Source: an uncultured archaeon (GTDB lineage Archaea; Altiarchaeota; Altiarchaeia; IMC4; SCGC-AAA252-I15). From it: 64,000 nucleotides of DNA. Position 1 is the first letter of the stretch, and each line of letters begins with the position of its first letter. The stretch spans positions 35,938-99,937 of the forward strand of contig CABMCB010000059.1 of assembly GCA_902384455.1 (NCBI GenBank), given 5' to 3'. The notes beneath the pieces are model-generated. The model saw only the letters and a program-made list of their open reading frames with translations, had not been told where the DNA came from and did no database searches. The translations under genes were made by a program, and so were the position numbers. Positions 13,451 through 55,355 of the stretch are shown here, in pieces.

Positions 13451-13457
13451 ACTGGTG

Positions 13458-13757: not shown

Positions 13758-13774
13758 ATTGGTCCTTTTGAAAA

Positions 13775-13848
13775 TGGTCGAGAATGCTGGAATCGAACCA
13801 ACCCCACATGCTCCCAAAGCACGCGTGCGGCCACAACACTTATTCTCG
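13775..13848 (-). tRNA. tRNA-Pro(TGG)
   Basis: CGTGC-TTTGGGA-GCATG, GTTCGATTC, CCA. Confidence 0.88.
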
Positions 13849-13855
13849 ACTAAAC

Positions 13856-14272
13856 TTACGGCAAAATCTTTTTCTCAATCGCTGCAACCGTGATTGCGCG
13901 ATAGTGGTCACCGGATGCGGCCTTCGCACCGTGGTCCGGCTGAATCCATTCCAACCAGCGGTTCATCGCTCTGCCCCACAGATGACCCTTCAGCTTTGCG
14001 CGATACGCGTGTGCTGAAATTGTTTCACCGGGCATGCCGTTGAACGCGAGCACGTTGATGAACTGGTCAAACGCCACTAGCACTCTGTGCAAGTATGACT
14101 CACGCGATGCACGCTGCTCGGCGTGTGCTTCGTCTTCTGCTGTGAATGGCTTCTCAATGTCGAAGTGTCCTTCGACGGCGGCGCGGATAGATGTCATCAC
14201 CAAACCCATTGCAACTAAACCAGCAATAGAACCTGCGATTATCTTTCCTGCTAGAAGCAATCCGTGTAGCAT
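13856..14272 (-). CDS. Membrane-anchored hypothetical protein
   Basis: 138 aa; N-terminal TM, DQFINV..NGMPGETIS motif. Confidence 0.6.
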   Translation of the reverse strand: MLHGLLLAGKIIAGSIAGLVAMGLVMTSIRAAVEGHFDIEKPFTAEDEAHAEQRASRESYLHRVLVAFDQFINVLAFNGMPGETISAHAYRAKLKGHLWGRAMNRWLEWIQPDHGAKAASGDHYRAITVAAIEKKILP

Positions 14273-14286
14273 TGTTCTCCAAAATT

Positions 14287-14361
14287 TGGTTCGGGCGGCA
14301 CGACTCGAACGTGCATTAACTGGGTCAGAGCCAGTGTTCCTGCCAATTGAAAGACATCCGA
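14287..14361 (-). tRNA. tRNA-Gln(CTG)
   Basis: ACTGG-CTCTGAC-CCAGT, CCA. Confidence 0.88.
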
Positions 14362-14431
14362 ACAGGGCCTACAATTCCGGGCCTTACATCAGGTTCTGAG
14401 GCCTAATGCCTGGAAATCTAGGCTTAAAGCT

Positions 14432-14506
14432 TGGTTGGGGCGAGTGGACTCGAACCACTATTAGAAGTTTCAAAGACTTCCTTCCTGCCAATTGAAAGAC
14501 ATCCCA
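14432..14506 (-). tRNA. tRNA-Gln(TTG)
   Basis: GAAGT-CTTTGAA-ACTTC, CCA. Confidence 0.88.
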
Positions 14507-14514
14507 ACGGAAAT

Positions 14515-14730
14515 TTACGGGAGCGGCGACTTCTGTAGATACATCGCCAAACCCAGTATAGCCGACGCGGCGGAGCCGATTGCGGCCATGATGAGAACAT
14601 TATGAATGCCAACACCGGGTCGTAGGTTAAAACTCTGTGGCGCGATTCCTATCGCGGAGAAAGCGTTAATGACACCGCCTGCTGCTCCGCTAATCATCGC
14701 TGCCAACAGTCCCTTGGACCAGGGCTTCAT
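14515..14730 (-). CDS. Small two-TM membrane protein
   Basis: 71 aa hydrophobic, AGGAG RBS. Confidence 0.6.
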   Translation of the reverse strand: MKPWSKGLLAAMISGAAGGVINAFSAIGIAPQSFNLRPGVGIHNVLIMAAIGSAASAILGLAMYLQKSPLP

Positions 14731-14744
14731 AGTGCTCCTAAAAT

Positions 14745-14818
14745 TGGACCGCCCGAGTGGAGTCGAACCACTGGTGCCTCTTTTGCAGAGAGGTAGCTTG
14801 CCGTTTGCCGACGAGCGG
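14745..14818 (-). tRNA. tRNA-Cys(GCA)
   Basis: CCTCT-CTGCAAA-AGAGG, U73, CCA. Confidence 0.88.
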
Positions 14819-14819
14819 T

Positions 14820-14906
14820 TGGCGGATGATGAAGGAATCGAACCCTCTCTACCTTTCAGTAGGCACAGTTTTCAAGACTGCTAGCCCCCATGGACTGCAA
14901 TCATCC
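14820..14906 (-). tRNA. tRNA-Ser(TGA)
   Basis: GCAGT-CTTGAAA-ACTGT, long variable arm, G73, CCA. Confidence 0.85.
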
Positions 14907-14915
14907 GTAAAATTT

Positions 14916-15003
14916 TGGCGGAAGGTAAGTGAATCGAACACTTACAACCTTTCGGTTGACTTAGGTTTAGCAAACCTATACGTTGCCTTTCCGTCAACCT
15001 TCC
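14916..15003 (-). tRNA. tRNA-Ser(GCT)
   Basis: TAGGT-TTGCTAA-ACCTA, long variable arm, CCA. Confidence 0.88.
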
Positions 15004-15006
15004 GCG

Positions 15007-15324
15007 TTACTTCTTGTCTGCGCCGCACTCACCCATCATCACCGTCTTGATTACGTGGTGATTGGCGCAACGAACTACACATTTAGCAATTTCAGCAAGA
15101 ACCGTTTCCCACTTCCGACTTGAACCTGCCGCAATCTTGAACGACTTCGTGCTCGGGTCTACGTGGTCAAACTCCAAGGCAGCTGGATGCCAAACTGTTC
15201 CGGGTGCGCAATCCACGCAACCGCTGGATAGTTTGATGGCATCGACCTTGGCGCGAAACTCAACATACTTCCTGGCCTGATATGACCGTTGTTGTTTCCG
15301 CGATTCTTCTGTTCTGATTCTCAT
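15007..15324 (-). CDS. HNH endonuclease
   Basis: CVDC...ALEFDHVD...EIAKCVVRCANHH. Confidence 0.8.
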   Translation of the reverse strand: MRIRTEESRKQQRSYQARKYVEFRAKVDAIKLSSGCVDCAPGTVWHPAALEFDHVDPSTKSFKIAAGSSRKWETVLAEIAKCVVRCANHHVIKTVMMGECGADKK

Positions 15325-15330
15325 AAATAT

Positions 15331-15616
15331 ATTAGTGAGCGTTAGCCTGGATTCTGTATTCCGGAATACGGAATGACTATCATCCATCTTCGCCTGCTAC
15401 CCGACCTTCATCACGCTCAACCAGCGCTCCGGTCCTATTTGCAGTTGCACCGATGTGGAGTGCCCAGTCTTGAATTAACTACGCTGGCCTTACCCGTACT
15501 CTCGCGAGTCCCGCAACTTCCACGGCATCGAGTTGAGATGTGTCCAGAACTTCCTCGGTCGCGTCGGCAAAGGCCGAAACTTTATAGCGCGGACCGCGAT
15601 AGTCTAGCTCACTAAT
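15331..15616 (-). ncRNA. rnpB: RNase P RNA, reduced form
   Basis: P1 ATTAGTGAGC/GCTCACTAAT; P2 GACTATC/GATAGTC; GAGGAAGTTCTGGA pairs with ACAGAATCCAGGCT forming P4 with bulged U; P6-like CTCAAC/GTTGAG; GCAA..CAAATAG and AGATGGATGA conserved segments. Confidence 0.88.
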
Positions 15617-15935
15617 CTAGTTTAACGTAACCGATGATACACAAAACCGCGACGAATGTCAACATAGAAATTGCGCCTGCGACAATCATCACATCGCCCG
15701 GGCTGTAAAGCCATCCCCGGAAACTGATGTAGTCCGCCAGGTATTTCAGGCTGGCGTCTGATGACATCGTGCAATGGGTCATGTTCGTGACCTGAAACGG
15801 CCAGTCCCATCTGCCGTGATATGCGACCGGCATGAACCCGCCGTTGGCCCACATCACTAGTTTGTTCATCAAGCCGCCGCCGATATAAGAGCCGAGGCCT
15901 GCGAGCGCCCACTTCAAAAAACTTTTGCGCTTCAT
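15612..15935 (-). CDS. DUF5317-like membrane protein
   Basis: ANGGFMPV...LKYLADYI...YSPGDVMI. Confidence 0.65.
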   Translation of the reverse strand: MKRKSFLKWALAGLGSYIGGGLMNKLVMWANGGFMPVAYHGRWDWPFQVTNMTHCTMSSDASLKYLADYISFRGWLYSPGDVMIVAGAISMLTFVAVLCIIGYVKLD

Positions 15936-16699
15936 GACGCCGCTTCGGCCTTCGACACATCCGCTCGGATGTGACTGATAGGCACCGCGATTGTCGGTGT
16001 GGTCGTTCCATCGTAACCGCCGATGACCAACCCGATAATTCTGTGCGTCTTTTCGCTTACGATTGCGCTGCCGGATGCGCCGTGCGAATCAAACTGCTGC
16101 ACGAGCATCATGCCGTGAACCGCTGAGCCAGCCGGAGCGATAACGCTCGCGACACTGCCTCTCGTCATCTGCTTCGTCATCTTCTCACCGAGTGAGAAAT
16201 TGACATCCACAGTTGCGTCACCAACGGCGACATCTGATTCGTCGCCCAGTTCGATGACTGGAATCTTCGCGTCGGTCTTCATGTAGTAGACCGCGTAGTC
16301 TTGGTACTCGACGCCGTCTTCATTCGGCTCAATCACTTCGGCCTTCAGAAGCTTCACGGGCGTCTTCTCCGTGCCGACGTTGTCGGACACCGAGTAAACC
16401 AAACCCTTCGGCAAATCTTCCGGATTGCCCTCGGCGGTGCAGTGCCCTGCACCAATCAATTCGTAACCGCCAGCGACCTTCTTGAACGCGGTGACCGTGC
16501 ACAAGAAGTGCGTCACGTCGTGGTCGTTCTTGATTACGCCGTCGTCCGTCTCTATTTCCGCGCCAGCAGGCAGCGTACCATAGAGCGCCATGCTCGCTTG
16601 GTAAACTTTACCGTCGAAGCCGCGAGGTGTCTTCACATCCGCGAACGCCGACGAACAAACCAAAATCAAAGCCGCTACGAGAGAGAAAATCTTTCTCAT
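15932..16699 (-). CDS. Secreted trypsin-like serine protease
   Basis: Signal peptide; GAGHC (His), QDYA (Asp), HGASGS (Ser). Confidence 0.8.
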   Translation of the reverse strand: MRKIFSLVAALILVCSSAFADVKTPRGFDGKVYQASMALYGTLPAGAEIETDDGVIKNDHDVTHFLCTVTAFKKVAGGYELIGAGHCTAEGNPEDLPKGLVYSVSDNVGTEKTPVKLLKAEVIEPNEDGVEYQDYAVYYMKTDAKIPVIELGDESDVAVGDATVDVNFSLGEKMTKQMTRGSVASVIAPAGSAVHGMMLVQQFDSHGASGSAIVSEKTHRIIGLVIGGYDGTTTPTIAVPISHIRADVSKAEAAS

Positions 16700-16704
16700 C
16701 TACA

Positions 16705-16791
16705 TTTGCCCGTCAGACACGCCTTGGCAGAGCACCGGTGTCAGACATGCGCCGTTCCAATTGGACCCTCTGCTCGGCGAACATCAGCAAA
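16705..16791 (-). ncRNA. Unknown structured RNA
   Basis: Nested pairings TTTGCT/GGCAAA, CGCC/GGCG, GCAGAG/CTCTGC. Confidence 0.3.
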
Positions 16792-16806
16792 TCAGCTATT
16801 AAGTTT

Positions 16807-16881
16807 TGGACGACCCGTCGGGACTTGAACCCGAATCCTCGGTTTAGGAAACCGTAACTCTTTCCATTGAGCTACAGGTCG
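16807..16881 (-). tRNA. tRNA-Arg(CCT)
   Basis: CGGT-TTCCTAA-ACCG, CCA. Confidence 0.88.
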
Positions 16882-16882
16882 T

Positions 16883-16957
16883 TGGTAGGCCGTGGAGGAA
16901 TCGAACCTCCATTCAGCGCTTAGAAGGCGCTAGTCCTGTCCGTTGAACGAACAGCCC
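16883..16957 (-). tRNA. tRNA-Arg(TCT)
   Basis: AGCGC-CTTCTAA-GCGCT, CCA. Confidence 0.9.
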
Positions 16958-16964
16958 ACAGAAA

Positions 16965-17044
16965 AGTTGCCGACCGCCTTGTCCGTCTGGCTCCACAGGT
17001 TTTCAAGACCCGTGCCGGGAGTCGAACCCGGTTTTGTCGGACTT
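16965..17044 (-). ncRNA. Circularly permuted tRNA mimic A (YrlA-like architecture)
   Basis: CCGAC - T arm CCGGG-TTCGACT-CCCGG - closed 7-bp acceptor CACGGGT-CTTGAAA-ACCTGTG - GA - D arm GCC-AGACGGACAA-GGC - G - GTCGG. Confidence 0.75.
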
Positions 17045-17102
17045 GTCGGGCGCGTGGCTGGCCGTGTCACAGCCCTTTGGACTCGCGTTATCCGACTGAA
17101 AT

Positions 17103-17176
17103 TGGCAGGACGCGTAGGAATTGAACCCACTCCGTTCGGGTTGGAGCCGAACATGCTACCGTAACACTTGCGACCT
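17103..17176 (-). tRNA. tRNA-Trp(CCA)
   Basis: TTCGG-CTCCAAC-CCGAA, CCA. Confidence 0.88.
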
Positions 17177-17226
17177 GTAGTGCTCAAGAGCACACTGGGT
17201 GAGTTAGTGTGCCCTTGAGGTAAGAC

Positions 17227-17302
17227 TGGAGCGTGATACCAGATTCGAACTGGTGCGTACTGGGTGGAAGCCAGTCATGCTAGCCGCTAACATCAATCGC
17301 GC
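17227..17302 (-). tRNA. tRNA-Gly(TCC)
   Basis: ACTGG-CTTCCAC-CCAGT, U73, CCA. Confidence 0.88.
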
Positions 17303-17311
17303 TCGAAACTA

Positions 17312-17581
17312 TTAAACTGTTGGTGCCGGAGCAAGTGCTGCTACGACGGTTGCATCTACCGCGTCAACTGCTGCTGCGTCTGCCGCGTCCTTCGCTGCTA
17401 CTGCTGCTGCTACAGCGGTCGGGCCATTTTCAGCAATCAACTTAGCGATGTCTGCTTGCAACTTTGCCATGCTGTCTGCGAATGCCATCATTTCTCTCCG
17501 TAGTGCGTGAAGTAACAACCTGTCTTGATGCGATAGTTCGACTACTAACTTCGGGTTAGGTGATTGGGCTTTTCCAAACAT
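17312..17581 (-). CDS. Ala-rich hypothetical protein
   Basis: ORF between Gly tRNAs; alternative internal start MMAFADS with GGAG RBS. Confidence 0.5.
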   Translation of the reverse strand: MFGKAQSPNPKLVVELSHQDRLLLHALRREMMAFADSMAKLQADIAKLIAENGPTAVAAAVAAKDAADAAAVDAVDATVVAALAPAPTV

Positions 17582-17603
17582 TCGAACCTCGCTTTCAATT
17601 TTT

Positions 17604-17677
17604 TGGAGCGACGTACCAGAATCGAACTGGTGCCCGAACCTTGGCAAGGTTCTGTTCTACCACTATACCAACATCGC
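17604..17677 (-). tRNA. tRNA-Gly(GCC)
   Basis: GAACC-TTGCCAA-GGTTC, CCA. Confidence 0.9.
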
Positions 17678-17680
17678 TCG

Positions 17681-18022
17681 TTACAAACCTCTGAACATCA
17701 CCATGGCCTTTTCGTGGAGCACCAACTGCTCTGGTGTCATCTGGCCCACAACCTTGCGGAAGCGGCCCATCTTTCTGTTCACGTTCGGCCTGGTCGGGAT
17801 GGTCGTCCTTACTGCTAGAGGACCGTCACCGTTCTGTTGCTCAACGAACTGTCTCGCCTGTGCTTCAGAACTAAATCTCTTCTCAACAATTTCTCCGGTG
17901 TTGTTGTCCAACTTCGTCGCGGAGTGTCCGAGCCAGTTCCACTTGTCTCCGTGGTTGCGCTCGTGCGGCAATCTTTTGCGGTCTTCATTTTCATGCTTCG
18001 GACGTTCGATTCGCATAGTCAC
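17681..18022 (-). CDS. Hypothetical protein
   Basis: 113 aa ORF filling gap between tRNAs. Confidence 0.55.
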   Translation of the reverse strand: MTMRIERPKHENEDRKRLPHERNHGDKWNWLGHSATKLDNNTGEIVEKRFSSEAQARQFVEQQNGDGPLAVRTTIPTRPNVNRKMGRFRKVVGQMTPEQLVLHEKAMVMFRGL

Positions 18023-18029
18023 CTTAAAA

Positions 18030-18103
18030 TGGTACCCGTGGTCGGAATCGAACCGACGCTACGTCCGTGAGAGGGACGCGTTCTACCACTAGACTACATG
18101 GGC
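18030..18103 (-). tRNA. tRNA-Glu(CTC)
   Basis: CGTCC-CTCTCAC-GGACG, CCA. Confidence 0.88.
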
Positions 18104-18111
18104 ACAGAAAA

Positions 18112-18186
18112 TGGCGGAGATAGCGGGAATCGAACCCGCACTTTGCCCGTGACAGGGGCATGTCGTTACCAACTGACCCTATCTCC
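18112..18186 (-). tRNA. tRNA-Asp(GTC)
   Basis: TGCCC-CTGTCAC-GGGCA, G73, CCA. Confidence 0.88.
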
Positions 18187-18193
18187 GCGAAAC

Positions 18194-18267
18194 TGGAGCT
18201 TCGTAAAGGAATTGAACCTTTACCTCATCCTTACCAAGGATGCGTTCTGCCGTTGAACTAACAAAGC
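18194..18267 (-). tRNA. tRNA-Thr(GGT)
   Basis: CATCC-TTGGTAA-GGATG, CCA. Confidence 0.9.
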
Positions 18268-18277
18268 GTAAAACTTA

Positions 18278-18356
18278 TCCGGTGTGCTACCGTTACACTA
18301 TAGCAACGAGCGGCTTTACCCGTTCCCGCCTGTGGGATTCGAACCCCTCTACCGGA
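18278..18356 (-). ncRNA. Circularly permuted tRNA mimic B
   Basis: TCCGGT - T arm GGG-TTCGAAT-CCC - imperfect closed stem - TA-GTGT-AACGGTA-GCAC D arm - ACCGGA. Confidence 0.65.
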
Positions 18357-18360
18357 AGAT

Positions 18361-18434
18361 TGGAGCACCGTCGTGGAATCGAACCACGGCTTCTGCGCTA
18401 CGAGGGCAGCTTCATGCCACTAGAACAACAGTGC
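18361..18434 (-). tRNA. tRNA-Thr(CGT)
   Basis: CTGC(C)-CTCGTAG-(C)GCAG with C31:C39 mismatch, CCA. Confidence 0.8.
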
Positions 18435-18442
18435 AAAACTTT

Positions 18443-18548
18443 TGGAGGAAGTCCCTCTCACTTGGCCCATCCGGCGCAGGGCACCCCGAAGGGCTGGAGG
18501 TCCGCTTTCGACTGTGAAGAAGAAGCGTACTTACCGTTGAAGACTTCC
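18443..18548 (-). ncRNA. Unknown CCA-ended structured RNA
   Basis: Terminal helix GGAAGTCTT/GGGACTTCC then TCCA; internal hairpins CGCTT/AAGCG, CCC-TTCG-GGG, GCCC/GGGC. Confidence 0.5.
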
Positions 18549-18570
18549 TTCGCCTTGCGGCGAGTAATCA

Positions 18571-18646
18571 TGGAGCACATCGCTGGATTCGAACCAACGT
18601 GTCGAAGGTACAAGCTTCGCATACTAGACCGCTGTATGAGACGTGC
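18571..18646 (-). tRNA. tRNA-Thr(TGT)
   Basis: CGAAG-CTTGTAC-CTTCG, CCA. Confidence 0.85.
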
Positions 18647-18652
18647 TCGATA

Positions 18653-18728
18653 TGGCGTATCCCCTAGGATTTGAACCTAGGACCCTTCGGTTAACAGCCG
18701 AATGCTCTGGCCGCTGAGCTAGGGATAC
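18653..18728 (-). tRNA. tRNA-Asn(GTT)
   Basis: TTCGG-CTGTTAA-CCGAA, G1:C72, CCA. Confidence 0.9.
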
Positions 18729-18733
18729 AAAGA

Positions 18734-18821
18734 TGGCTGGAGCAGCAGGACTCGAACCTGCAATGTGCTTTCGCACTGCCTGGGTAACAGCCAGGTGCTG
18801 TACCAATTGAGCCACACTCCA
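18734..18821 (-). tRNA. tRNA-Asn(GTT) with long variable arm
   Basis: CCTGG-CTGTTAC-CCAGG, variable hairpin GTGC-GAAA-GCAC, U1:A72, G73, CCA. Confidence 0.8.
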
Positions 18822-18831
18822 GTAGAAATTT

Positions 18832-18906
18832 TGGAGCACCCACTCGGAATCGAACCGAGATAGTCAGTTTCGAAGACTGATGCCCTATCCGTTGGACGAC
18901 AGGTGC
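18832..18906 (-). tRNA. tRNA-Arg(TCG)
   Basis: TCAGT-CTTCGAA-ACTGA, CCA. Confidence 0.88.
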
Positions 18907-19223
18907 TCGTGTGTTCTGATGCGATGACAATTTGCACAAACGACATCGCATTTCGAAATTTCTTCCAGTAACTTCTCCATTGAGGAGTTGTGATAGCCGC
19001 TGGAAATGTTGAACTTCTTTACTCCGCGAACATGGTCAAAATCCATGCACACAGATGGGAACTTGTTCCCGCAATCAGCACACGCGACGTTCTTAGCTGG
19101 CTCGATTATCTCCGCGTACAGTCTTTCTTTCCGTTTCGCGGATTTGTCGATGTAATACTGCTTGTGGTTTTTGTAATGCCTTCGGCCACAAGCTTTAGCC
19201 AGTTCTGAATTAGCGTACGCCAT
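18885..19223 (-). CDS. HNH endonuclease
   Basis: CADCG...CMDFDHVRG...EISKCDVVCANCHRIRT. Confidence 0.85.
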   Translation of the reverse strand: MAYANSELAKACGRRHYKNHKQYYIDKSAKRKERLYAEIIEPAKNVACADCGNKFPSVCMDFDHVRGVKKFNISSGYHNSSMEKLLEEISKCDVVCANCHRIRTHEHLSSNG

Positions 19224-19227
19224 AAAT

Positions 19228-19304
19228 TGGTAGACCGTGGTGGATTTGAACCAACCATTATAGCCTTCGCAGGGCTATGTCCTATCCAGTTGAACGAACA
19301 GTCC
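19228..19304 (-). tRNA. tRNA-Arg(GCG)
   Basis: TAGCC-CTGCGAA-GGCTA, CCA. Confidence 0.82.
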
Positions 19305-19342
19305 ACATTAAATCGTACTTTCGAAAATTTGTCAAGAACTAT

Positions 19343-20017
19343 TTAGTTCAGTACTTCAACAACTGCGGTTCTCATCTGGATAGATGAAAGCGCTGAGCCG
19401 GTCACAGCCTGCAACAGCAGGTTGTTCGTGCTCGCTGCGGTCAAGTTAACCGCTATGCCAGCCGCTACGTTGGTGTCCTGATACTCTGACATCGGAGCGG
19501 TTGCTGAAGCACCAATCAAGATTGCCAAAGCGCCGTGTCCTTCAAGCGTACCGGATGCACCGGTTGAAACTGTGTAAATGTGGCCTTCGAAGTTCCATGG
19601 GAAGTTCGTTTGTGAGGCCGTTGTCGCTTGGCTCGTCGCGGTCAAAACCGTCTGAGTGAAAGCGCCAGAGAAACCTAGCTGAATACCAATCGTCGGCGTC
19701 TGTGCGCCAGCCGTGGTGTAAATGCCCCACATGCGTACGCGAAGAACCTTTCCGGCGACGTTCATGAACGCGGTCGGTAGCGCCAATGTGGCGAACGTTC
19801 CCGTGCCGTTCAATGCCGTCAGTGCAGCCGGAGCCGCGTTGTAAACAATCGCTGCGCCGCCTAGAGCGTAGTTCAAACCGTTCCAGAAGTACTTGCCCGA
19901 CTTCTGCGTCGTATCGTACCAGTAATCTCCGTCAATCGGAGAAGCCGGTGCAACACCGGACGGAATGTTCAAGGGCGCTGCTGCCGCTGTTGAGTTCGGC
20001 AATGTGAGAAATGACAT
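19343..20017 (-). CDS. Putative virion structural protein
   Basis: 224 aa, PSGVAPASPIDGDYWYD fibre-like motif, Ala/Thr/Gly-rich; GAGGAG RBS. Confidence 0.55.
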   Translation of the reverse strand: MSFLTLPNSTAAAAPLNIPSGVAPASPIDGDYWYDTTQKSGKYFWNGLNYALGGAAIVYNAAPAALTALNGTGTFATLALPTAFMNVAGKVLRVRMWGIYTTAGAQTPTIGIQLGFSGAFTQTVLTATSQATTASQTNFPWNFEGHIYTVSTGASGTLEGHGALAILIGASATAPMSEYQDTNVAAGIAVNLTAASTNNLLLQAVTGSALSSIQMRTAVVEVLN

Positions 20018-20100
20018 TTCTCCTCTCTTCGGCTACGCGCCGATATCACTGATGATGCAACTTGTACAAGATGAAAAGACTGATTGCTACACCAAGGACG

Positions 20101-20346
20101 TTACACACTGTTCGGGTCACTGCCAGCGCTAGGTCCAGTCTTTGGTGGTTCATTCTTCTCTTCTTTGCGCTTGGTCCGTTGCTCGTACCATTTGCGCCGT
20201 AAATCCAGATATTCCTTCTGCGCCGCGAGACTTTCCTGACTAACTTTCAGGCTCTCTTCAGCCATGCGCTTCATTGCGTGGTCGTCGATGTAGATTGCGA
20301 CCAGGATGAATATTTCTAAGACAAGAAGTGCATCCTGCCAAGTCAT
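20101..20346 (-). CDS. Single-TM hypothetical protein
   Basis: MTWQDALLVLEIFILVAIYI followed by coiled coil. Confidence 0.55.
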   Translation of the reverse strand: MTWQDALLVLEIFILVAIYIDDHAMKRMAEESLKVSQESLAAQKEYLDLRRKWYEQRTKRKEEKNEPPKTGPSAGSDPNSV

Positions 20347-20361
20347 AGTCACCTTCAAAAT

Positions 20362-20437
20362 TGGTACCCAGTGAGTGAATCGAACACTCCCCACCTCTTT
20401 GTAGGAGAGGCGCATACGACCAGTTTGCTAACCGGGT
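20362..20437 (-). tRNA. tRNA-Val(TAC), C33 variant
   Basis: CCTCT-CCTACAA-AGAGG, A73, CCA. Confidence 0.8.
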
Positions 20438-20745
20438 AATGCCTTAGCGATTTGTTGTTTCTTGATTCTCGCGTAAGGACGAATCTTTTTCAAAAACTCT
20501 CTTGCATTTCTGTTTGACACTATCCATCGCCAAACCTTTTTGTTGGTTCGTTTATCAGATGTGTGAATAGTGCCGAACTTAAAAAGGCGTTGAACGAACT
20601 TCAAAACTTTCACGTCTGTGTTCGTTATCGTTGCAATCGTTCGAAAATAATACTTGCCGTTCTTCGTTGCCTGATATTTCGCGAAACGGCAATGGCCTTC
20701 ACCATCGAACAACCCACTCACATAAGCTAAGTCGATTTTTCTCAC
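20428..20745 (-). CDS. LAGLIDADG homing endonuclease
   Basis: LAYVSGLFDGEG; FLKKIRPY..IKKQQ. Confidence 0.85.
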   Translation of the reverse strand: MRKIDLAYVSGLFDGEGHCRFAKYQATKNGKYYFRTIATITNTDVKVLKFVQRLFKFGTIHTSDKRTNKKVWRWIVSNRNAREFLKKIRPYARIKKQQIAKALPG

Positions 20746-20764
20746 TTAGTGCCTTTCGTAAACT

Positions 20765-20838
20765 TGGTGGACCGCCGGAGAGTCGAACTCCGTCTTGATG
20801 CGTGCAAGGCAACCGTATTCCCGTCCTACTCGCAGCCC
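20765..20838 (-). tRNA. tRNA-Ala(TGC)
   Basis: G3:U70, loop CTTGCAC, A73, CCA. Confidence 0.82.
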
Positions 20839-20846
20839 ACATAAAT

Positions 20847-20920
20847 TGGTTGCGGATGTCGGAGTCGAGCCGACCAGCAGTGCTTATGAGACACCGTACC
20901 TCACCCGAGGTGTACCCGCA
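20847..20920 (-). tRNA. tRNA-Met(CAT), divergent
   Basis: GGTGT-CTCATAA-GCACT; T loop CTCGACT; atypical D arm; CCA. Confidence 0.75.
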
Positions 20921-20929
20921 AAAGAAAAT

Positions 20930-21005
20930 TGGTAGCGTCGGCGGGATTCGAACCCGCGTGAGGACCTTGAAAGGGTCCCATCCTAGGCCACTAGATGACA
21001 TCGCC
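20930..21005 (-). tRNA. tRNA-Glu(TTC)
   Basis: GGACC-CTTTCAA-GGTCC, CCA. Confidence 0.9.
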
Positions 21006-21118
21006 ACAAAAGAAGCTAGAGCATGGCTTCTTTACAACTTCAGCTTACGCAAGGCTCCCGGCTGAAGCGCCCATACAGCGGGTGTTTACCGAGTAAACAA
21101 CCCACATATGGGTTAAAT

Positions 21119-21203
21119 TGGTACCCCGTGAGAGATTTGAACTCCCATGGCTGTTAACCGACGCGTTCTAAGCGCGTTGTGTCTGCCGTTCCACCAACAG
21201 GGC
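21119..21203 (-). tRNA. tRNA-Leu(TAG)
   Basis: ACGCG-CTTAGAA-CGCGT, long variable arm, CCA. Confidence 0.88.
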
Positions 21204-21214
21204 ACTGAAACTTA

Positions 21215-21274
21215 TGGAGCGGTCACTACCTGTGTGACAGGCACCTCCCCGGGCACTGCCCGGGAGCACCGCTC
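21215..21274 (-). ncRNA. Unknown CCA-ended two-hairpin RNA
   Basis: GAGCGGT/ACCGCTC closing TCCCGGG/CCCGGGG and TGCCTGT/ACAGGTA; ends TCCA. Confidence 0.45.
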
Positions 21275-21276
21275 GC

Positions 21277-21459
21277 TTACTTACGCATGTCTCGCACATG
21301 CTGGTAATATGAAAGCTGGTCCACCGGACGGTCGTGGTCATGACGACGGTCTTCGATGTCCGCGCTCATCGGATAATCTTTCGGGACTTGAAATCCCTTT
21401 GACGTATCCTTCGCGTCTCCGACAACTTTCATGCCTAGCTTCGGCTTATCGTCGGGCAT
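21277..21459 (-). CDS. Small hypothetical protein
   Basis: 60 aa, GAGGT RBS. Confidence 0.55.
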   Translation of the reverse strand: MPDDKPKLGMKVVGDAKDTSKGFQVPKDYPMSADIEDRRHDHDRPVDQLSYYQHVRDMRK

Positions 21460-21471
21460 ATTACCTCAAAC

Positions 21472-21546
21472 TGGTAGTCTCTCTGTGACTCGAACACAGG
21501 TCTCTCGCTAATCAGGCAAGCATCCTAGCCGCTGGACGAAAAGACT
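21472..21546 (-). tRNA. tRNA-Ile(GAT), U37 variant
   Basis: CTTGC-CTGATTA-GCGAG, CCA. Confidence 0.82.
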
Positions 21547-21554
21547 ACTGAAAT

Positions 21555-21645
21555 TGGTGGATGCGGAATGATTCGAACATTCTATGTGCCACAAGGACAT
21601 CCTGTTTTACAGACAGGTACGACCCGCCGTCTTCGCCGCACATCC
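21555..21645 (-). tRNA. tRNA-Tyr(GTA)
   Basis: CCTGT-CTGTAAA-ACAGG, long variable arm, A73, CCA. Confidence 0.85.
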
Positions 21646-21656
21646 ACTGAAACTAA

Positions 21657-21743
21657 GGGAACCCACGGGTCACTCACCCGCGCCAATCACGGGTCCGGTA
21701 CCGGATATCCGTAATCGTTCAATCTACCTCGAACTGCGTTCCC
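21657..21743 (-). ncRNA. Unknown four-way-junction RNA
   Basis: GGGAAC/GTTCCC closing GTTCGA/TTGAAC, GATTACGG/CCGTGATT and CGCGGGT/ACCCGTG. Confidence 0.45.
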
Positions 21744-21751
21744 ACGAAACT

Positions 21752-21827
21752 TGGTGGGTCGCCAGCGACTTGAACGCTGAACTTGCTCCTTAAAAGGGAG
21801 AAATGTTGCCGCTAACACCTGCAACCC
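21752..21827 (-). tRNA. tRNA-Lys(TTT)
   Basis: CTCC-CTTTTAA-GGAG, CCA. Confidence 0.85.
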
Positions 21828-21860
21828 ACGATAATCGGTAACGTTCTACCGATTGAAACT

Positions 21861-21935
21861 TGGTGGACTACCAGGGATTCGAACCCTGACCAAACTCGTT
21901 AAGAGCGAGCTATGCAACCGTAACACCTGTGGTCC
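21861..21935 (-). tRNA. tRNA-Lys(CTT)
   Basis: GCTCG-CTCTTAA-CGAGT, CCA. Confidence 0.88.
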
Positions 21936-22083
21936 ACTGAAAAATCTGACAGCTTGTTGTCATGGAACGGACTTTAATCGGAGTTCTACCGATGCTGTCT
22001 ACGCCGTCTCACGTTGTATCCCCGCGTGAAGACTGTGTTCACGCCTCATGTTAAGCGACGACACTGTCTCGTCGCGGGAAGAT

Positions 22084-22172
22084 TGGTACTCGATGAAGGA
22101 ATCGGACCTTCGTGCAAGCGTAATCTACGCCGACTCGTTATAAGCGAGTGCCGCAAACCATCGCAATCGAGT
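22084..22172 (-). tRNA. Atypical tRNA with TAT anticodon and long variable arm
   Basis: Acceptor ACTCGAT/ATCGAGT, D arm GCGA-TGGT-TTGC, ACTCG-CTTATAA-CGAGT, variable hairpin GCGTA/TACGC, T loop TCCGATT, ACCA. Confidence 0.75.
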
Positions 22173-22178
22173 AAAAAG

Positions 22179-22287
22179 TTGTCCGGAGCGTACGCTTTCG
22201 GCGTCTCACCCGCCATCACGAATGCCGCGTCAACGGCACTGACTTCCCCTCGTTAGACTCGGTTGACGCCGGTCGCGAGTCGGACAA
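22179..22287 (-). ncRNA. Unknown structured RNA
   Basis: TTGTCCG/CGGACAA terminal helix, inner GCGTCAAC/GTTGACGC. Confidence 0.4.
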
Positions 22288-22289
22288 AT

Positions 22290-22368
22290 TGGTGCGCCGC
22301 GTGAGATTCGAACTCACATGTGGTCACGTTTTAAGTGTGCCGCGTATGCCGCATTCCGCCAGCAGCGC
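22290..22368 (-). tRNA. tRNA-Leu(TAA) lacking long variable arm
   Basis: Leu-type D arm GGCGGAATGCGGCATACGC, loop CTTAAAA, ~6-nt variable region, A73, CCA. Confidence 0.75.
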
Positions 22369-22595
22369 TAAACTCTTGTGCTCGTCGCGGAAGCTAGCGT
22401 ATCGCTGGTTCCGGGCTGATACGCAACCGTACCTGAAGCACAAACATCGCTAGGGTCAACAACCCATTGCTTCCATGCCAGCCGGGTTGCAACCCGTAGG
22501 CACTTCAGATGTGGACTTCTACCACGCGAAAACTTATGAGACAGCCCTGGCCGAAGCCACTCCGGGTAATACCTTAGTCTTACGTCTCAAACTTT

Positions 22596-22656
22596 TTCGG
22601 TGTGCCCACTACACTACTTCTGGCTAGGCCAGCACGGAGTCGAACCGTCTACCGAA
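22596..22656 (-). ncRNA. Circularly permuted tRNA mimic C
   Basis: TTCGGT - ACGG-TTCGACT-CCGT - CTGGC-CTA-GCCAG - TA-GTGT-AGTGG-GCAC - ACCGAA. Confidence 0.7.
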
Positions 22657-22659
22657 TCT

Positions 22660-22746
22660 TGGTCGCCCACACAGGACTCGAACCTGTACGCTTTTCACGG
22701 CACCGGGTTTTGAATCCGGCATGTCTGCCAGTTCCATCAGCAGGCG
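22660..22746 (-). tRNA. tRNA-Leu(CAA)
   Basis: Loop TTCAAAA, long variable arm, CCA. Confidence 0.88.
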
Positions 22747-22805
22747 AAATTCTCCCGGCAAAGGCCGGGAAGGGGTGGTTACCTCAGCGCTAAGCGCTCC
22801 TAAAT

Positions 22806-22879
22806 TGGTCCCTGCTGTTTGAATCGAACAAACACGACCGGCTTTTCAGACCGGGATGCGACCACTACATCAAACAGGG
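22806..22879 (-). tRNA. tRNA-Phe(GAA)
   Basis: CCGGT-CTGAAAA-GCCGG, CCA. Confidence 0.88.
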
Positions 22880-22880
22880 T

Positions 22881-22955
22881 TGGGGCGAACGTCGGGATTC
22901 GAACCCGAACCGGCGGATTCACAGTCCACCGTGCTGCCGTTACACTACACACGCC
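22881..22955 (-). tRNA. tRNA-His(GTG)
   Basis: GTGGA-CTGTGAA-TCCGC, G-1:C73, CCA. Confidence 0.9.
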
Positions 22956-23041
22956 ACATAAACTTTGGGGCCAGCACACGATTGTCTACGTGCCGCCGTC
23001 TTTACGCTCTTTCGAACGCCCCTCCGAAACTCGACTTGGTG

Positions 23042-23070
23042 ATTCTCTCACAACTTCGAAATCTTGTCAA
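23042..23070 (-). promoter_or_regulatory. Sigma70-type promoter for RNA island
   Basis: TTGACA-N17-GAGAAT upstream of first tRNA. Confidence 0.6.
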
Positions 23071-23077
23071 GCCTTTT

Positions 23078-23212
23078 TTACAGCTTGCTCTCGATTTTCT
23101 TTGCGATGGCCGAACCCTCTGCCACCTTGGCTTCCTTCACGAACAAAGCCTTAATCTTGCGACCGACCGCCGGGGTGAATGCTCCCAGGACATAGCCGAC
23201 TGCCATCAACAT
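23078..23212 (-). CDS. Small hydrophobic protein (possibly leaderless)
   Basis: MLMAVGYVLGAFTPAVGRKIKALF...; TTGACA-N17-TACACT ends 5 nt before ATG. Confidence 0.45.
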   Translation of the reverse strand: MLMAVGYVLGAFTPAVGRKIKALFVKEAKVAEGSAIAKKIESKL

Positions 23213-23253
23213 CAAAGAGTGTAGCATTTTCTGTTTTTCCTGTCAAGGGTTTT

Positions 23254-23568
23254 TTACCAGAGACCCTTGAACGCTCTCATTTTCGCTAGGCGGAGCATTC
23301 CTTTCTCGAACCGTGGACCGTGGTCAACCTTGTACGGCAGGCTGACGTGGACCATCTCGTGCAACAGCGTCATGCGAAATCCGCCGCGCCATGTGCGCAA
23401 CGTGTTTTCAATCAAAATCCGCTTCGGCACCTTGCCTTCGTACTGCGTAATGCCTATAGCGTTGTATTTCTCGACCAATCCCTTTCTGAACAGCACGGGG
23501 ATATTCGGAAGCTTGCCTCGGAAGTACAGCCGGTTATACCTTCGGTACAAGCGCTGCTGCCGGGTCAT
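23254..23568 (-). CDS. SprT-like zinc metalloprotease
   Basis: YNRLYFRGKLP, TLLHEMVH, DHGPRF. Confidence 0.8.
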   Translation of the reverse strand: MTRQQRLYRRYNRLYFRGKLPNIPVLFRKGLVEKYNAIGITQYEGKVPKRILIENTLRTWRGGFRMTLLHEMVHVSLPYKVDHGPRFEKGMLRLAKMRAFKGLW

Positions 23569-52940: not shown

Positions 52941-53012
52941 GTGGCTGGCTATGGGAAGGCTTCCTTCTAAACCTTTCATTGAGAAAAAATAGCTCTCTCG
53001 CTTCCCGGCCAC
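52941..53012 (+). ncRNA. Structured RNA motif, copy 1
   Basis: GTGGCTGG/CCGGCCAC, internal loop CTAT/GCTTC, GGGAAGGCT/AGCTCTCTC, TTCT/AGAA. Confidence 0.7.
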
Positions 53013-53056
53013 ATTTGCATCACCTAAGACGAACGTAGTGCCTATAGTTAAAAAAC

Positions 53057-53129
53057 CCGGACGGCTATGTGGAGGCTTCCTTCTAAACTCTACTGCCAAC
53101 AGAAAATAGCTTTCGCGCTTTCCGTCCGG
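53057..53129 (+). ncRNA. Structured RNA motif, copy 2
   Basis: CCGGACGG/CCGTCCGG, CTAT/GCTTT, GTGGAGGCT/AGCTTTCGC, TTCT/AGAA; covaries with copy 1. Confidence 0.7.
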
Positions 53130-53150: not shown

Positions 53151-55355
53151 ATGTTGAACGAAGAAATCTTGCTACGCCGAAAGAATCTAATCACCATTCC
53201 GGACTCAGCAGGCCGCACGAACGTCGGCGTCATCGCGGCTGCTAACCTGAACCTTCAGGAATACGGCTACACTCTGTCAGCCGAAGCCATCCGCACGTTC
53301 ATCAACACGAACTATCTCGTGTCCTCAGCCATTCTGTCTCAGGTCCAGCAGTTCGCACGCAAGGCCAAGGGCCTAGGCGACGGGCTGGCTCACCCGATGT
53401 ATCCCAACTTTCCACAGCAGGTCGCAGAGGCCGCATGGTCAGAGCTATACATCAACGCCATTCTGCACTACTTCACCGTGTTCGTTGCTGATGTCACTGG
53501 CGCGTCGAACGTGGTTTACATGCCGCGCTACGTCAAGAACTATCGCGGACCGTTGACGAAGTCGAACGATGTTCCGCTGACCGTTCTGAACGTCATCGCG
53601 GCTCGTGAAATCGGTCCGATTATGCGCAAGCTTCAGACACAGCTTGTGACGTCGAACACGTCCGTGTCCGCACAGGACAAGGCCGACATCCGCGAACTAG
53701 TAGACATGGGATTCCTGATTGACCGAACTGTTGAAATCCCGAACAAGGAAAACCGTGCGGTCTACGCGGGTGCGCTCGTTTCTCACCGCGATGCAATTTT
53801 GGAAGACTGGTTCAAGACCGGCACCGACGTGCTACGTCTAGCGACCGCCATGTCTGACGGCGACGTCTCGCTGGCGGAGAACACGAAGTTTCGCTCGTTC
53901 AAGCGGTTCGAGCGTCGTCTGCTGATGGGCCTGCTTCGCCGGGACAAGAACATTCAGGAATCATTCGCACGCGACCGTGAGCGGTTCAAGCGGTTGGCGG
54001 AGCGTCTGCACCCGAACGAGTTCAAGGGCATGGAGTGCCGCAACCTTCGAAACGCGTTCAAGATTCTAAAGGCTGGCGCACGTCTGGAAACGTTCGCTGG
54101 CACCGTTGAAGGATTGCTGTCAACCGGACAGGTGGCTAACGCTGCCGGTCTGTTGACGACCCGACCGGGTGAGTTCGCTCGCCGGTTGGACCATCTGCTT
54201 CGCGCAGTCATCGGGCAGTCCAACAACGCTTTCGAGCGTAAGGACTACACGCAGGAAATCATCGACCTGTTTCTGAACGTCGTGGACAAGGTTTCCACGC
54301 CTGTGCTGCTGCAGGTGTTGACGCACTTCAAGAACCGCAACAAGGACTCGATGCGCGTCGTGATGCCGAAGGGCGAGGTTTCGAAGATTTATGTTCTGGA
54401 CGACGAACGCGGCGGAATTAGCTCGTCTCTGTTGACCGATTTGATTCTCGGCATCGAGGCATCGCTGGTCTCTCGCTTCTCAAACCTTGACGATTTGGGC
54501 AAGGTCTACATCGACCCGAAGCTGAAGAACTATCTGGTGCCGTTCAGCCAGCGTTCTGCATCGGCTTCTCTTCGAACGATTACCCGTGGTTCAAAGGTTC
54601 CGTTCGCAACCGATAAGGACACGATTCGTTTCTTCATTCACTGGAAGAACACCGACGCTAAGAACGATTACAACCGTGGCCGCGTTGACCTGGACCTGTC
54701 TGCAGTGATGTACTCTGCCGACTGGAAGAACCAGGGCAATGTGTCCTACTTCAATCTGCGCCGTGGCGAGTATTCAAGCTACTACGGCAAGCCGACGTAC
54801 ACGGCGGTTCACTCCGGTGACATTACCGACGCACCTCGCGGCGCGGCGGAGTTCATCGACGTGGACATCCCGAGCATGCTTCGCACTGGCGTTCGCTACA
54901 TCGCGATGTCCGTGAACATGTTCGCCGGTCCGGAAGGACTGCACCAGGTTCCGGAGTGCTTCGCAGGCTGGATGCTCCGCAACGAACCGCAGTCTGGCGA
55001 AGTCTTCGAACCGAAGACGGTAGCGGACCGCATCGACATCACCTCGCAGGCATCGAAGATGGTCGTTCCGATGGTCATCGACCTTCAGAACCGGGAAATG
55101 ATTTGGGTTGACTCGGAAGTTTCGGGTGTGCCCCGCTTCGGTTCTAACGTCGCCAACCAGGCGGACAAGCTTGCAACCGTGGCGCAGGCGTTCACGCGCA
55201 TCAGCAAGACGAATCTCTACGACCTGTTGAATCTTCACGCACAGGGTCGCGGAGTGTTGGTGCACAGCGAGCGCAACGCTGACACGGTGTTCTCAACCGA
55301 GAAAGGATTCCAGTTCGATTTGGCAACAATCGCTTCAGAGTACCTAGGCGACTAA
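53151..55355 (+). CDS. Large helical protein with C-terminal TerD-like domain
   Basis: Start ATG 53151 (AAGGA RBS); YPNFP, TDVLRLA..MSDGD, RPGEFARRLD; TerD-like VDLDLSA...HSGDITDAPRGAAEFIDVD. Confidence 0.75.
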   Translation: MLNEEILLRRKNLITIPDSAGRTNVGVIAAANLNLQEYGYTLSAEAIRTFINTNYLVSSAILSQVQQFARKAKGLGDGLAHPMYPNFPQQVAEAAWSELYINAILHYFTVFVADVTGASNVVYMPRYVKNYRGPLTKSNDVPLTVLNVIAAREIGPIMRKLQTQLVTSNTSVSAQDKADIRELVDMGFLIDRTVEIPNKENRAVYAGALVSHRDAILEDWFKTGTDVLRLATAMSDGDVSLAENTKFRSFKRFERRLLMGLLRRDKNIQESFARDRERFKRLAERLHPNEFKGMECRNLRNAFKILKAGARLETFAGTVEGLLSTGQVANAAGLLTTRPGEFARRLDHLLRAVIGQSNNAFERKDYTQEIIDLFLNVVDKVSTPVLLQVLTHFKNRNKDSMRVVMPKGEVSKIYVLDDERGGISSSLLTDLILGIEASLVSRFSNLDDLGKVYIDPKLKNYLVPFSQRSASASLRTITRGSKVPFATDKDTIRFFIHWKNTDAKNDYNRGRVDLDLSAVMYSADWKNQGNVSYFNLRRGEYSSYYGKPTYTAVHSGDITDAPRGAAEFIDVDIPSMLRTGVRYIAMSVNMFAGPEGLHQVPECFAGWMLRNEPQSGEVFEPKTVADRIDITSQASKMVVPMVIDLQNREMIWVDSEVSGVPRFGSNVANQADKLATVAQAFTRISKTNLYDLLNLHAQGRGVLVHSERNADTVFSTEKGFQFDLATIASEYLGD

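What the first reader, a model, noticed from the sequence alone, without database searches (positions are those of the whole stretch)
16965..22656. Three circularly permuted tRNA mimics (YrlA-like) inside the tRNA array
Seen: elements at 16965-17044, 18278-18356 and 22596-22656 read 5' stem - T arm (GGTTCGA.TCC) - closed acceptor-like hairpin - D arm - 3' stem. Each is a tRNA opened at the anticodon and sealed at the acceptor end, with no anticodon loop and no CCA. B and C share CGGTAGA and TAGTGTA..GG..GCACACCG and begin 3-4 nt after the CCA of the upstream tRNA. Established: this arm order is that of bacterial YrlA Y RNAs, normally found next to ro60 genes. No canonical Ro60 gene is in the window. 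Inference: they could be partners of the 53151 protein, tRNA-elbow decoys for defence or modification enzymes, or permuted tRNA precursors.
Basis: partly seen in the sequence, partly recalled or inferred. Interest (0 to 1): 0.85.

Follow-up and report, generated by a model that had tools for sequence, protein, structure and literature searches.

The report
Permuted tRNA-shaped RNAs in phage array
A phage carries three small RNA genes among its tRNA genes that are shaped like a tRNA with the anticodon removed and the amino-acid end sealed, so they probably imitate tRNA to bind a tRNA-recognising factor rather than to decode.

Summary
The three elements exist as described, on the minus strand of a 34-tRNA phage array. 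A (17040-16970) is a textbook circular permutation of a tRNA. It recurs in 5 phage contigs, with 11 of 20 base pairs changed on both sides. It is fused 3' of a roughly 50-nt pseudoknot motif found in 39 distinct places and absent from Rfam. C is a compact version. B is degenerate, and neither has an orthologue.

They are not YrlA members. The Rfam YrlA model gives A 13 bits against a threshold of 69. There is no Ro-binding stem, and no TROVE gene in the assembly or in a 97%-complete relative. They cannot mature into tRNAs either: there is no U33/R37 loop and no CCA.

The same module, capped by UUCG, GAAA or CUA loops, recurs in other phage arrays (35 strict hits, against 0 and 2 in two controls).

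The protein has a C-terminal TerD domain and a helical domain whose three best structural matches are Ro60. Its gene is flanked by its own Y-like scaffold RNAs. In other phages some of these scaffolds carry this tRNA-like module as an insert.

Best reading: portable, non-decoding tRNA-body mimics that act in trans. The partner is unknown.

The parts
16970..17040 (-). Element A: circularly permuted tRNA-shaped module. It has a 5-bp closing stem, a T arm, a 7-bp capped acceptor-like stem with the loop CUUGAAA, and a D arm.
   Evidence: Sequence. The fold is the MFE. Model R1 scores 87.7 bits here and 70-83 bits in 4 homologues. In alignment A5, 93.9% of cells are paired, 11 of 20 pairs change on both sides, and 0 of 500 shuffles reach this.
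17046..17095 (-). Pseudoknot-type motif fused 5' of A. It has a variable closing helix around the core AGUCCAAAGGGCUGUGACACGGCCAGCCA (17083-17055).
   Evidence: 39 distinct instances. Flank pairs 1-3 are paired in 39 of 39, with covariation. Core positions 14 and 24 are G:C in 36 and A:U in 3. Of 29 16-mer hits, 26 carry the rest of the core. No Rfam match at E<=10.
18278..18356 (-). Element B: degenerate permuted tRNA-shaped module between tRNA-Thr(cgt) and tRNA-Thr(ggt).
   Evidence: Sequence. The tRNA-type fold is -19.1 against an MFE of -25.5 kcal/mol. It shares its D arm and 5' string with C, with C38:26828-26922 and with L088:1123-1188.
22596..22656 (-). Element C: compact permuted tRNA-shaped module, 3 nt after the CCA of tRNA-Leu(caa). 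Its 5-bp acceptor-like stem is capped by CUA.
   Evidence: Sequence. The fold is within 0.1 kcal/mol of the MFE. R1 scores 15.7 bits, E 0.13.
52941..53129 (+). Context only; the link to A, B and C is inferred. Two Y-like scaffold RNAs (52941-53012 and 53057-53129) lie just upstream of the TerD-domain protein gene. Neither has a tRNA-like insert.
   Evidence: Sequence. They are the only two good matches to CATCCTTCTA in the window (1 mismatch each). The scaffold regex gives 76 hits in 36 homologue loci and 0 in 2.07 Mb of control loci. The stems covary.
53151..55355 (+). Context only; the link to A, B and C is inferred. Gene of a 734-aa protein with a Ro60-like helical domain and a C-terminal TerD domain.

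Best explanation
A, B and C are non-decoding tRNA-body mimics. Each is a separate unit of the phage's polycistronic tRNA/small-RNA array.

The predicted fold is a tRNA-like cloverleaf. By analogy with tRNA it should present a T-loop/D-loop elbow and a T arm stacked on a capped acceptor-like helix. The two functional ends of a tRNA are missing: there is no anticodon loop and no CCA.

I infer that they are cut out of the array transcript at the A/U-rich spacers, like the neighbouring tRNAs. I further infer that they act in trans by occupying a factor that recognises tRNA shape, as a decoy, sponge or tether. Candidates are RNase P, T- or D-loop modification enzymes, or a tRNA-targeting host defence nuclease.

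The module appears to be a portable domain. The same design occurs free-standing (B, C and modules in other phages), fused to a pseudoknot motif (A), inside scaffold RNAs that flank homologues of the window's TerD/Ro60-like protein, and in Ro60-linked Y-like RNAs.

Shown: the anatomy, conservation with covariation for A, recurrence of the design, and the lack of decoding features.
Inferred: expression, excision, the three-dimensional L shape, action in trans, and the identity of the partner.
For: - A has exact tRNA junction geometry, and that fold is its MFE.
- The five A homologues keep all four helices through changes on both sides: 11 of 20 pairs, 93.9% of cells paired, 0 of 500 shuffles, and 29-47% paired when the partners are slid.
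- All three have the T-loop consensus TTCGANT and GG in the D loop.
- A strict descriptor found 35 distinct permuted cloverleaves in 2.05 Mb of fetched loci. 21 of them do not overlap an ARAGORN tRNA. Block-shuffled loci gave 0 and reversed loci 2.
- Several caps are stable designed-looking loops: UUCG (L088, L107), GAAA (L086:781-850) and CUA (L067, window C). A leftover inter-tRNA spacer would not give these.
- In loci holding homologues of the 53151 protein, 7 of 11 distinct tRNA-free modules start 10-14 nt after the scaffold motif, so they are inserts of a larger RNA.
- One module (L074) lies about 0.7-1 kb upstream of a TROVE gene on the same strand.
- YrlA's tRNA-like domain has the same arm order. 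[quoted passage not shown]
Against: - No RNA data: no RNA run holds the region, so expression and ends are unknown.
- B and C have no orthologues in the 60 related genomes searched or among phage records.
- B folds poorly as a tRNA.
- Single-sequence folding z-scores are unremarkable.
- No partner is identified.
- A, B and C lack the scaffold that flanks the 53151 protein.
- The loci used for the descriptor count were fetched partly with a T-arm-containing pattern, so the frequency of the design cannot be generalised.
Confidence: 0.45

Rival explanations
1. They are cis-acting punctuation. As tRNA-shaped folds in the array transcript they guide or block RNase P, RNase E or 3' exonucleases, so that neighbouring tRNAs are released with correct ends. 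They would have no function once excised.
For: - Modules sit 0-7 nt after an upstream tRNA's CCA in the window. The same holds in L086, L088, L064 and L126.
- This phage lineage carries its own RNase P RNA-like gene in the array: C59, C38, G061, G062, G063 and G071.
- A has a 7-bp acceptor-like stem. The passages I read of PMC4201824 say this feature makes M. smegmatis YrlA an RNase P substrate.
Against: - RNase P would be expected to cut in the cap loop, not at the module's 5' boundary. That would not free the upstream tRNA (inference).
- Most tRNAs of the array manage without such a neighbour.
- The same module also occurs as an insert in scaffold RNAs outside tRNA slots.
Confidence: 0.2
2. 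They are remnants of tRNA gene rearrangement, for example a junction between tandem tRNAs trimmed on both sides, with no function of their own.
For: - B is degenerate.
- B and C have no orthologues.
- The D arm of B and C resembles that of array tRNAs such as tRNA-Gln of C38.
- Junctions of adjacent tRNAs score with both the YrlA model and R1.
- Homing endonuclease ORFs lie in the array, for example a LAGLIDADG ORF at 20431-20745.
Against: - A keeps its pairing by compensatory change across 5 contigs.
- The caps are remodelled to 3-7 nt loops with no CCA or spacer.
- Two independent deletions would be needed for each element (inference).
Confidence: 0.12
3. They are true YrlA Y RNAs that work with a canonical Ro60, either host-encoded or on an unassembled part of the phage.
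For: The arm order is the same as in the YrlA consensus. Some phages do encode Ro60 with Y-like RNAs beside it, namely G065 and G066.
Against: - TROVE gave 0 hits in G000, which is 92% complete, and 0 hits in G063.
- A scores 13.2 bits against 69.
- There is no outer stem and no GNCGAAN0-1G motif next to the modules (read; the motif is as quoted in PMC4201824).
Confidence: 0.03
4. They are circularly permuted pre-tRNAs that are ligated at the open end and opened at the cap to give functional tRNAs.
For: The 3' half precedes the 5' half, as in the permuted tRNA genes of algae and archaea (PMC3978253 and PMC3218864; I saw only the search listing and abstract starts).
Against: - No split of the flanking bases gives a loop with U33 and a purine at 37 (read).
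- The caps are 3-12 nt with no CCA.
- The acceptor-like stems of B and C have 5 bp.
Confidence: 0.03

Closest known systems
YrlA (bacterial and phage Y RNA, Rfam RF02553), tRNA-like domain
   Same: The order is identical: closing stem, T arm, capped acceptor-like stem, 2-nt linker, D arm (alignment). It is non-decoding and has no CCA. It occurs in phages (PMC4201824, passages).
   Different: A, B and C have no outer Ro-binding stems, no adjacent or genomic TROVE gene and no GNCGAAN0-1G motif. They sit as units of a tRNA array, and A is fused to an unrelated pseudoknot motif.
M. smegmatis YrlA with a 7-bp acceptor stem
   Same: A also has a 7-bp capped acceptor-like stem stacked on a T arm. In M. 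smegmatis this makes the RNA an RNase P substrate, followed by CCA addition (PMC4201824, passages).
   Different: Cleavage of A is untested. B and C have only 5-bp stems with 3-12 nt loops.
Circularly permuted tRNA genes (Cyanidioschyzon merolae, some archaea)
   Same: The 3' half is encoded before the 5' half of a tRNA.
   Different: Those mature into decoding tRNAs. Here no anticodon loop can be rebuilt and no CCA or trailer is present. How those genes mature is from recall; I saw only the listing and abstract starts of PMC3978253 and PMC3218864.
Junctions of adjacent tRNA genes (dimeric tRNAs)
   Same: The T arm of one tRNA followed by the D arm of the next gives the same arm order. Such junctions score with both the YrlA model and R1. 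PMC4201824 mentions them as possible false positives.
   Different: A, B and C overlap no tRNA. Their closing stems pair, and their caps are short loops rather than CCA plus spacer.
Two-piece (permuted) tmRNA
   Same: It is a permuted tRNA-like domain joined to pseudoknot RNA (recalled).
   Different: ARAGORN called no tmRNA in the window. There is no tag reading frame and no CCA end.

Membership tests
YrlA / Y RNA (RF02553) | Scores at or above the Rfam gathering score (69 bits) | tested here: not met
   A scores 13.2 bits. B and C gave no hit at E<=10. Caveat: RNAs next to a phage TROVE gene (G065) also reach only 42 and 35 bits, so this criterion alone is weak.
YrlA / Y RNA (RF02553) | Encoded next to, or in a genome with, a Ro60 (TROVE) gene | tested here: not met
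   PF05731 gave 0 hits in G000, which is 92% complete, and 0 hits in G061, G062 and G063; G063 is 97% complete.
YrlA / Y RNA (RF02553) | Outer Ro-binding stem with the 5'-strand motif GNCGAAN0-1G | tested here: not met
   The flanks of A, B and C are tRNAs, short spacers or the pseudoknot motif. I found no complementary outer strands and no such motif when reading. The motif is as quoted in PMC4201824.
YrlA / Y RNA (RF02553) | tRNA-like domain in the order T arm, capped acceptor stem, D arm, closed by a stem | tested here: met
   Alignment to the YrlA consensus structure; folds.
YrlA / Y RNA (RF02553) | tRNA-type modifications and binding by Ro60 in vivo | not testable with these tools
   No RNA run holds the region.
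Circularly permuted tRNA gene | 3' half encoded upstream of the 5' half | tested here: met
Circularly permuted tRNA gene | The termini rebuild a 7-nt anticodon loop (U33, R37), and the acceptor end carries or can receive CCA after removal of an intervening segment | tested here: not met
   I enumerated the flanking bases by eye and found no U33/R37 combination. The caps are 3-12 nt with no CCA.
Canonical tRNA | Called by ARAGORN or by Rfam RF00005 | tested here: not met
   No call overlaps A, B or C.
tmRNA, one-piece or permuted | tRNA-like domain with a CCA end plus a tag reading frame | tested here: not met
   ARAGORN found no tmRNA in the window. Rfam gave no tmRNA hit in 13000-23500.
Ro60 / TROVE (for the 53151 protein) | Sequence match to the TROVE profile | tested here: not met
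   No Pfam hit at E<=5. hhalign of the 24-sequence family against 21 Ro60 sequences gave probability 0.1%.
Ro60 / TROVE (for the 53151 protein) | TROVE helical-repeat fold | tested here: inconclusive
Ro60 / TROVE (for the 53151 protein) | Gene flanked by Y-like RNAs | tested here: met
   Two scaffold RNAs lie upstream in the window. The scaffold regex gave 76 hits in 36 homologue loci against 0 in controls. The Rfam YrlA model reaches 35-44 bits on some of them.

The most novel reading that the evidence does not exclude
Phages use a portable, circularly permuted tRNA-body domain as a plug-in effector module on at least three unrelated RNA scaffolds. The scaffolds are canonical Ro60 Y RNAs, a new family of Y-like RNAs that flank a TerD-fused protein with a Ro60-like fold (the window's 53151 protein), and a widespread pseudoknot motif absent from Rfam (element A). 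In this phage the module has also been set free as stand-alone array units (B and C). The same unknown tRNA-shape reader would then be recruited or titrated in each case, and the 53151 protein with its RNAs would be a previously undescribed Ro60-like ribonucleoprotein.
Probability: 0.3. Interest if true: 0.9.

Novelty: new variant of a known kind. Interest (0 to 1): 0.8.

Why it matters
Phage tRNA arrays are usually read as codon supply or as spare parts against tRNA-cleaving defences. Conserved array units that copy the tRNA body but cannot decode point to a second use: manipulating whatever reads tRNA shape.

The work also makes two leads testable.
- A compact pseudoknot motif occurs in phage-type contexts in genome bins from many bacterial phyla. 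It has no Rfam family.
- A protein with a TerD domain and a Ro60-like helical domain has its own flanking Y-like RNAs. This could extend the Ro60/Y RNA principle to a second protein family, and it could give the function of YrlA's tRNA-like domain a tractable phage model.

Tried and rejected
- RNA evidence: the look-up of sequencing runs listed no RNA holder, only 3 DNA runs of one study with small shares. I did not lay reads.
- Close relatives: megablast of 16500-23200 against phage records found nothing. Distant blastn hit only tRNA-Gly. The C region was not found in the 60 related genomes searched. The search for related loci with the array ORF 19346-20017 found no relative.
- Pseudoknot motif as an HDV-like theta ribozyme: I threaded the HDV topology by eye and it does not fit. 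The passages I read of PMC10879173 gave no consensus to compare with.
- Sequence strings of the motif: the two longer strings occurred in none of the held papers. The 315 papers returned held only the 9-letter string.
- Literature: I found nothing in the held library on permuted tRNA units in phage arrays or on a phage-encoded RNase P RNA. These are limited word searches, not proof of absence.
- The supplementary tables of PMC4201824, which list phage YrlA RNAs, were not seen. They may already include modules of this kind.
- Composite pattern for A: a scan of viral contigs gave 77 stretches, of which only the 3 already known carry the composite.
- My first permissive descriptor gave 79 mostly spurious hits in G000. 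I replaced it with the strict one.
- MAFFT alignment of the B/C-type modules was not structural, so I built no model from it.
- RtcB is present only on contig C11, not on the phage contigs.
- Foldseek found no significant match for the helical domain of the 53151 protein.

Full report
**Setting.** The window is G000:C59:35938-99937, in a bin of 103 contigs. It is phage DNA: it encodes a portal, a terminase, DNA polymerase A, ribonucleotide reductase, ThyX and a primase-polymerase. ARAGORN finds 34 tRNAs at 13373-22954, all on the minus strand. Two other contigs of the bin also carry tRNA arrays: C38 with 30 tRNAs and C4 with 25.

**Observation.** On the minus strand, all three elements read closing stem, T arm, capped hairpin, D arm, closing stem.
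- A (17040-16970) has the exact junction geometry of a tRNA cut in the anticodon loop. Its linkers are 4, 0, 2 and 1 nt, its closing stem has 5 bp and its capped stem 7 bp. This fold is its MFE.
- C (22656-22596) is a reduced version whose fold is essentially the MFE.
- B (18356-18278) is degenerate. Its tRNA-type fold lies 6.4 kcal/mol above the MFE.
- Folding z-scores alone are weak.

**Conservation of A.** A has a 75-79% identical copy in C38. Three viral contigs also carry it: L022, L027 and L032.
- A covariance model built from the five scores them at 70-88 bits.
- On the model-fitted alignment, 93.9% of cells pair and 11 of 20 pairs change on both sides. No shuffle out of 500 reaches this, and sliding the partners drops pairing to 29-47%.
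- The alignment is fitted to the model. However, I had seen the same compensatory changes by eye in the unaligned sequences.

**A is a composite.** Immediately 5' of A (17095-17046) lies a motif with a variable closing helix around the core AGUCCAAAGGGCU[R]UGACAYGGC[Y]AGCCA.
- A 16-mer from it hit 29 viral contigs, and 26 of them carry the rest of the core.
- A degenerate core pattern hit contigs of 16 species genomes from many phyla. The neighbouring genes are phage-type in several, such as terminase, DnaB and capsid.
- Over 39 distinct instances, the three closing pairs are always paired and covary, and core positions 14 and 24 switch together from G:C to A:U.
- The core's invariance is partly by construction, because the patterns fixed it.
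- Rfam has no match.
- The motif stands alone in most contigs. In L017 it sits between the same tRNAs without A.

**Not YrlA and not a pre-tRNA.**
- The YrlA model aligns A arm for arm, but at 13.2 bits against a gathering score of 69.
- Its other sub-threshold hits in the bin are junctions of neighbouring tRNAs (sequences checked).
- TROVE is absent from G000 and from G061, G062 and G063; G063 is 97% complete.
- No outer stem exists around the modules.
- The flanks cannot rebuild an anticodon loop, and the caps hold no CCA.

**The design recurs.** A strict descriptor found 35 distinct hits in 2.05 Mb of fetched loci, and 21 of them are free of ARAGORN tRNAs. Block-shuffled loci gave 0 and reversed loci 2.
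- Caps include UUCG, GAAA and CUA.
- Many of these loci were fetched with a pattern containing a T arm, so frequencies cannot be generalised.
- R1 hits below the five homologues are mostly tRNA-tRNA junctions.
- L074's module lies upstream of a TROVE gene, and G065 has a bona fide Ro60. The class therefore includes true Y RNAs.
- G067 is 100% complete. It has three modules and no TROVE gene.

**The 53151 protein.**
- Its homologue in G067 (33% identity, E 2e-32) ends about 140 nt upstream of one such module.
- In 36 viral loci holding homologues, a scaffold pattern occurs 76 times. Every hit is on the gene's strand, and the hits cluster at the two ends of the gene. There were 0 hits in 2.07 Mb of control loci and 5 loose hits elsewhere in G000.
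- Of 70 distinct units, 45 have full inner and outer stem partners in a fixed geometry with widely varying stem sequences, against 7 of 70 after shuffling.
- Seven of 11 distinct tRNA-free modules in these loci start 10-14 nt after the scaffold motif.
- The Rfam YrlA model reaches 35-44 bits on some of these RNAs.
- In the window, two such units (52941-53012 and 53057-53129) lie just upstream of the ATG at 53151. Neither has a tRNA-like insert.
- The protein has a C-terminal TerD domain.
- Its helical domain, modelled alone at pLDDT 85, has Ro60 as the top three of 48,161 chains by VIA-align. Foldseek and hhalign see nothing.
- The protein is absent from G063, G071, G061 and G062, and from every contig of the bin except C59. 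A therefore does not depend on it.

**Reading.** The evidence best fits portable, non-decoding tRNA-body mimics. Expression, excision, action in trans and the partner are all inferred. The rivals are cis-acting processing signals, rearrangement remnants (most plausible for B), canonical YrlA and permuted pre-tRNAs.

**Literature.**
- For PMC4201824, PMC10879173, PMC10690425 and PMC7824862 I saw passages through the find mode.
- For PMC3978253 and PMC3218864 I saw only the search listing and abstract starts.

Noticed in passing
window 15327-15616 (-): An RNase P RNA-like gene (bacterial type A model, 79.8 bits against a gathering score of 100, full model span, only 290 nt) lies inside the tRNA array. 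Similar genes are in C38 (95 bits) and in 4 of the 5 related viral records searched: G061, G062, G063 and G071 at 85-95 bits, but not G067. The bin's other contigs gave no type-A RNase P RNA above 26 bits. A word search of the held papers found nothing on a phage-encoded RNase P RNA.
   Followed up: partly
window 17046-17095 (-): A compact pseudoknot-type motif with an almost invariant 29-nt core and a covarying closing helix. It has 39 distinct instances, in viral contigs and in contigs of 16 species genomes from many phyla. It has no Rfam family and its function is unknown. Part of the core, GAGUCCAAAGG, resembles from memory the conserved GGUCCGAAGG of metazoan Y RNAs. I did not test this.
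   Followed up: partly
window 52941-53012, 53057-53129 and 53151-55355 (+): A TerD-domain protein with a Ro60-like helical domain is flanked by its own family of Y-like scaffold RNAs. Each has an outer stem, a CUAUN loop, a covarying inner stem, the motif CWUCCUUCUA, a variable insert and a 6-nt 3' loop. The family is seen in 24 of 36 viral loci with homologues, and some inserts are permuted tRNA modules. The longest ORF starts at 53067, but the conserved N-terminus and the upstream RNAs point to a start at 53151.
   Followed up: partly
window 17177-17226, 18435-18570, 21006-21118, 21646-21751, 21936-22083, 22173-22289, 22369-22595, 22747-22805 (-): The array holds further non-tRNA units with strongly predicted structure (for example -45 kcal/mol over 117 nt). 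Most are set off by spacers such as AUUU or AGUUU, like the tRNAs. None matches Rfam at E<=10.
   Followed up: no
window 20768-20838 (-): Rfam's tRNA model scores 39.6 bits here, but ARAGORN made no call. This is a likely 35th tRNA.
   Followed up: no
window 20431-20745 (-), 26352-26762 (+), 32958-33461 (+): ORFs resembling homing endonucleases. A LAGLIDADG ORF lies inside the tRNA array. A weak, sub-threshold GIY-YIG match and an HNH ORF lie elsewhere in the window.
   Followed up: no
window 17001-17007 (-); L067:9700-9706; L086 just 3' of 781-850 (-): The 7-nt string CUUGAAA, which has the form of an anticodon loop (C32, U33, A37, A38), is the cap loop of A. It is also the 3' flank directly after the closing stem of two modules in other phages. 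This is unexplained.
   Followed up: no
L223 (G065:89480-89790, minus strand): A complete 173-kb phage record encodes a bona fide Ro60 (TROVE plus Ro60 vWA domains). Two Y-like RNAs lie 0.5-0.8 kb upstream of it. They score only 42 and 35 bits with the YrlA model, so the Rfam threshold misses phage Y RNAs.
   Followed up: partly
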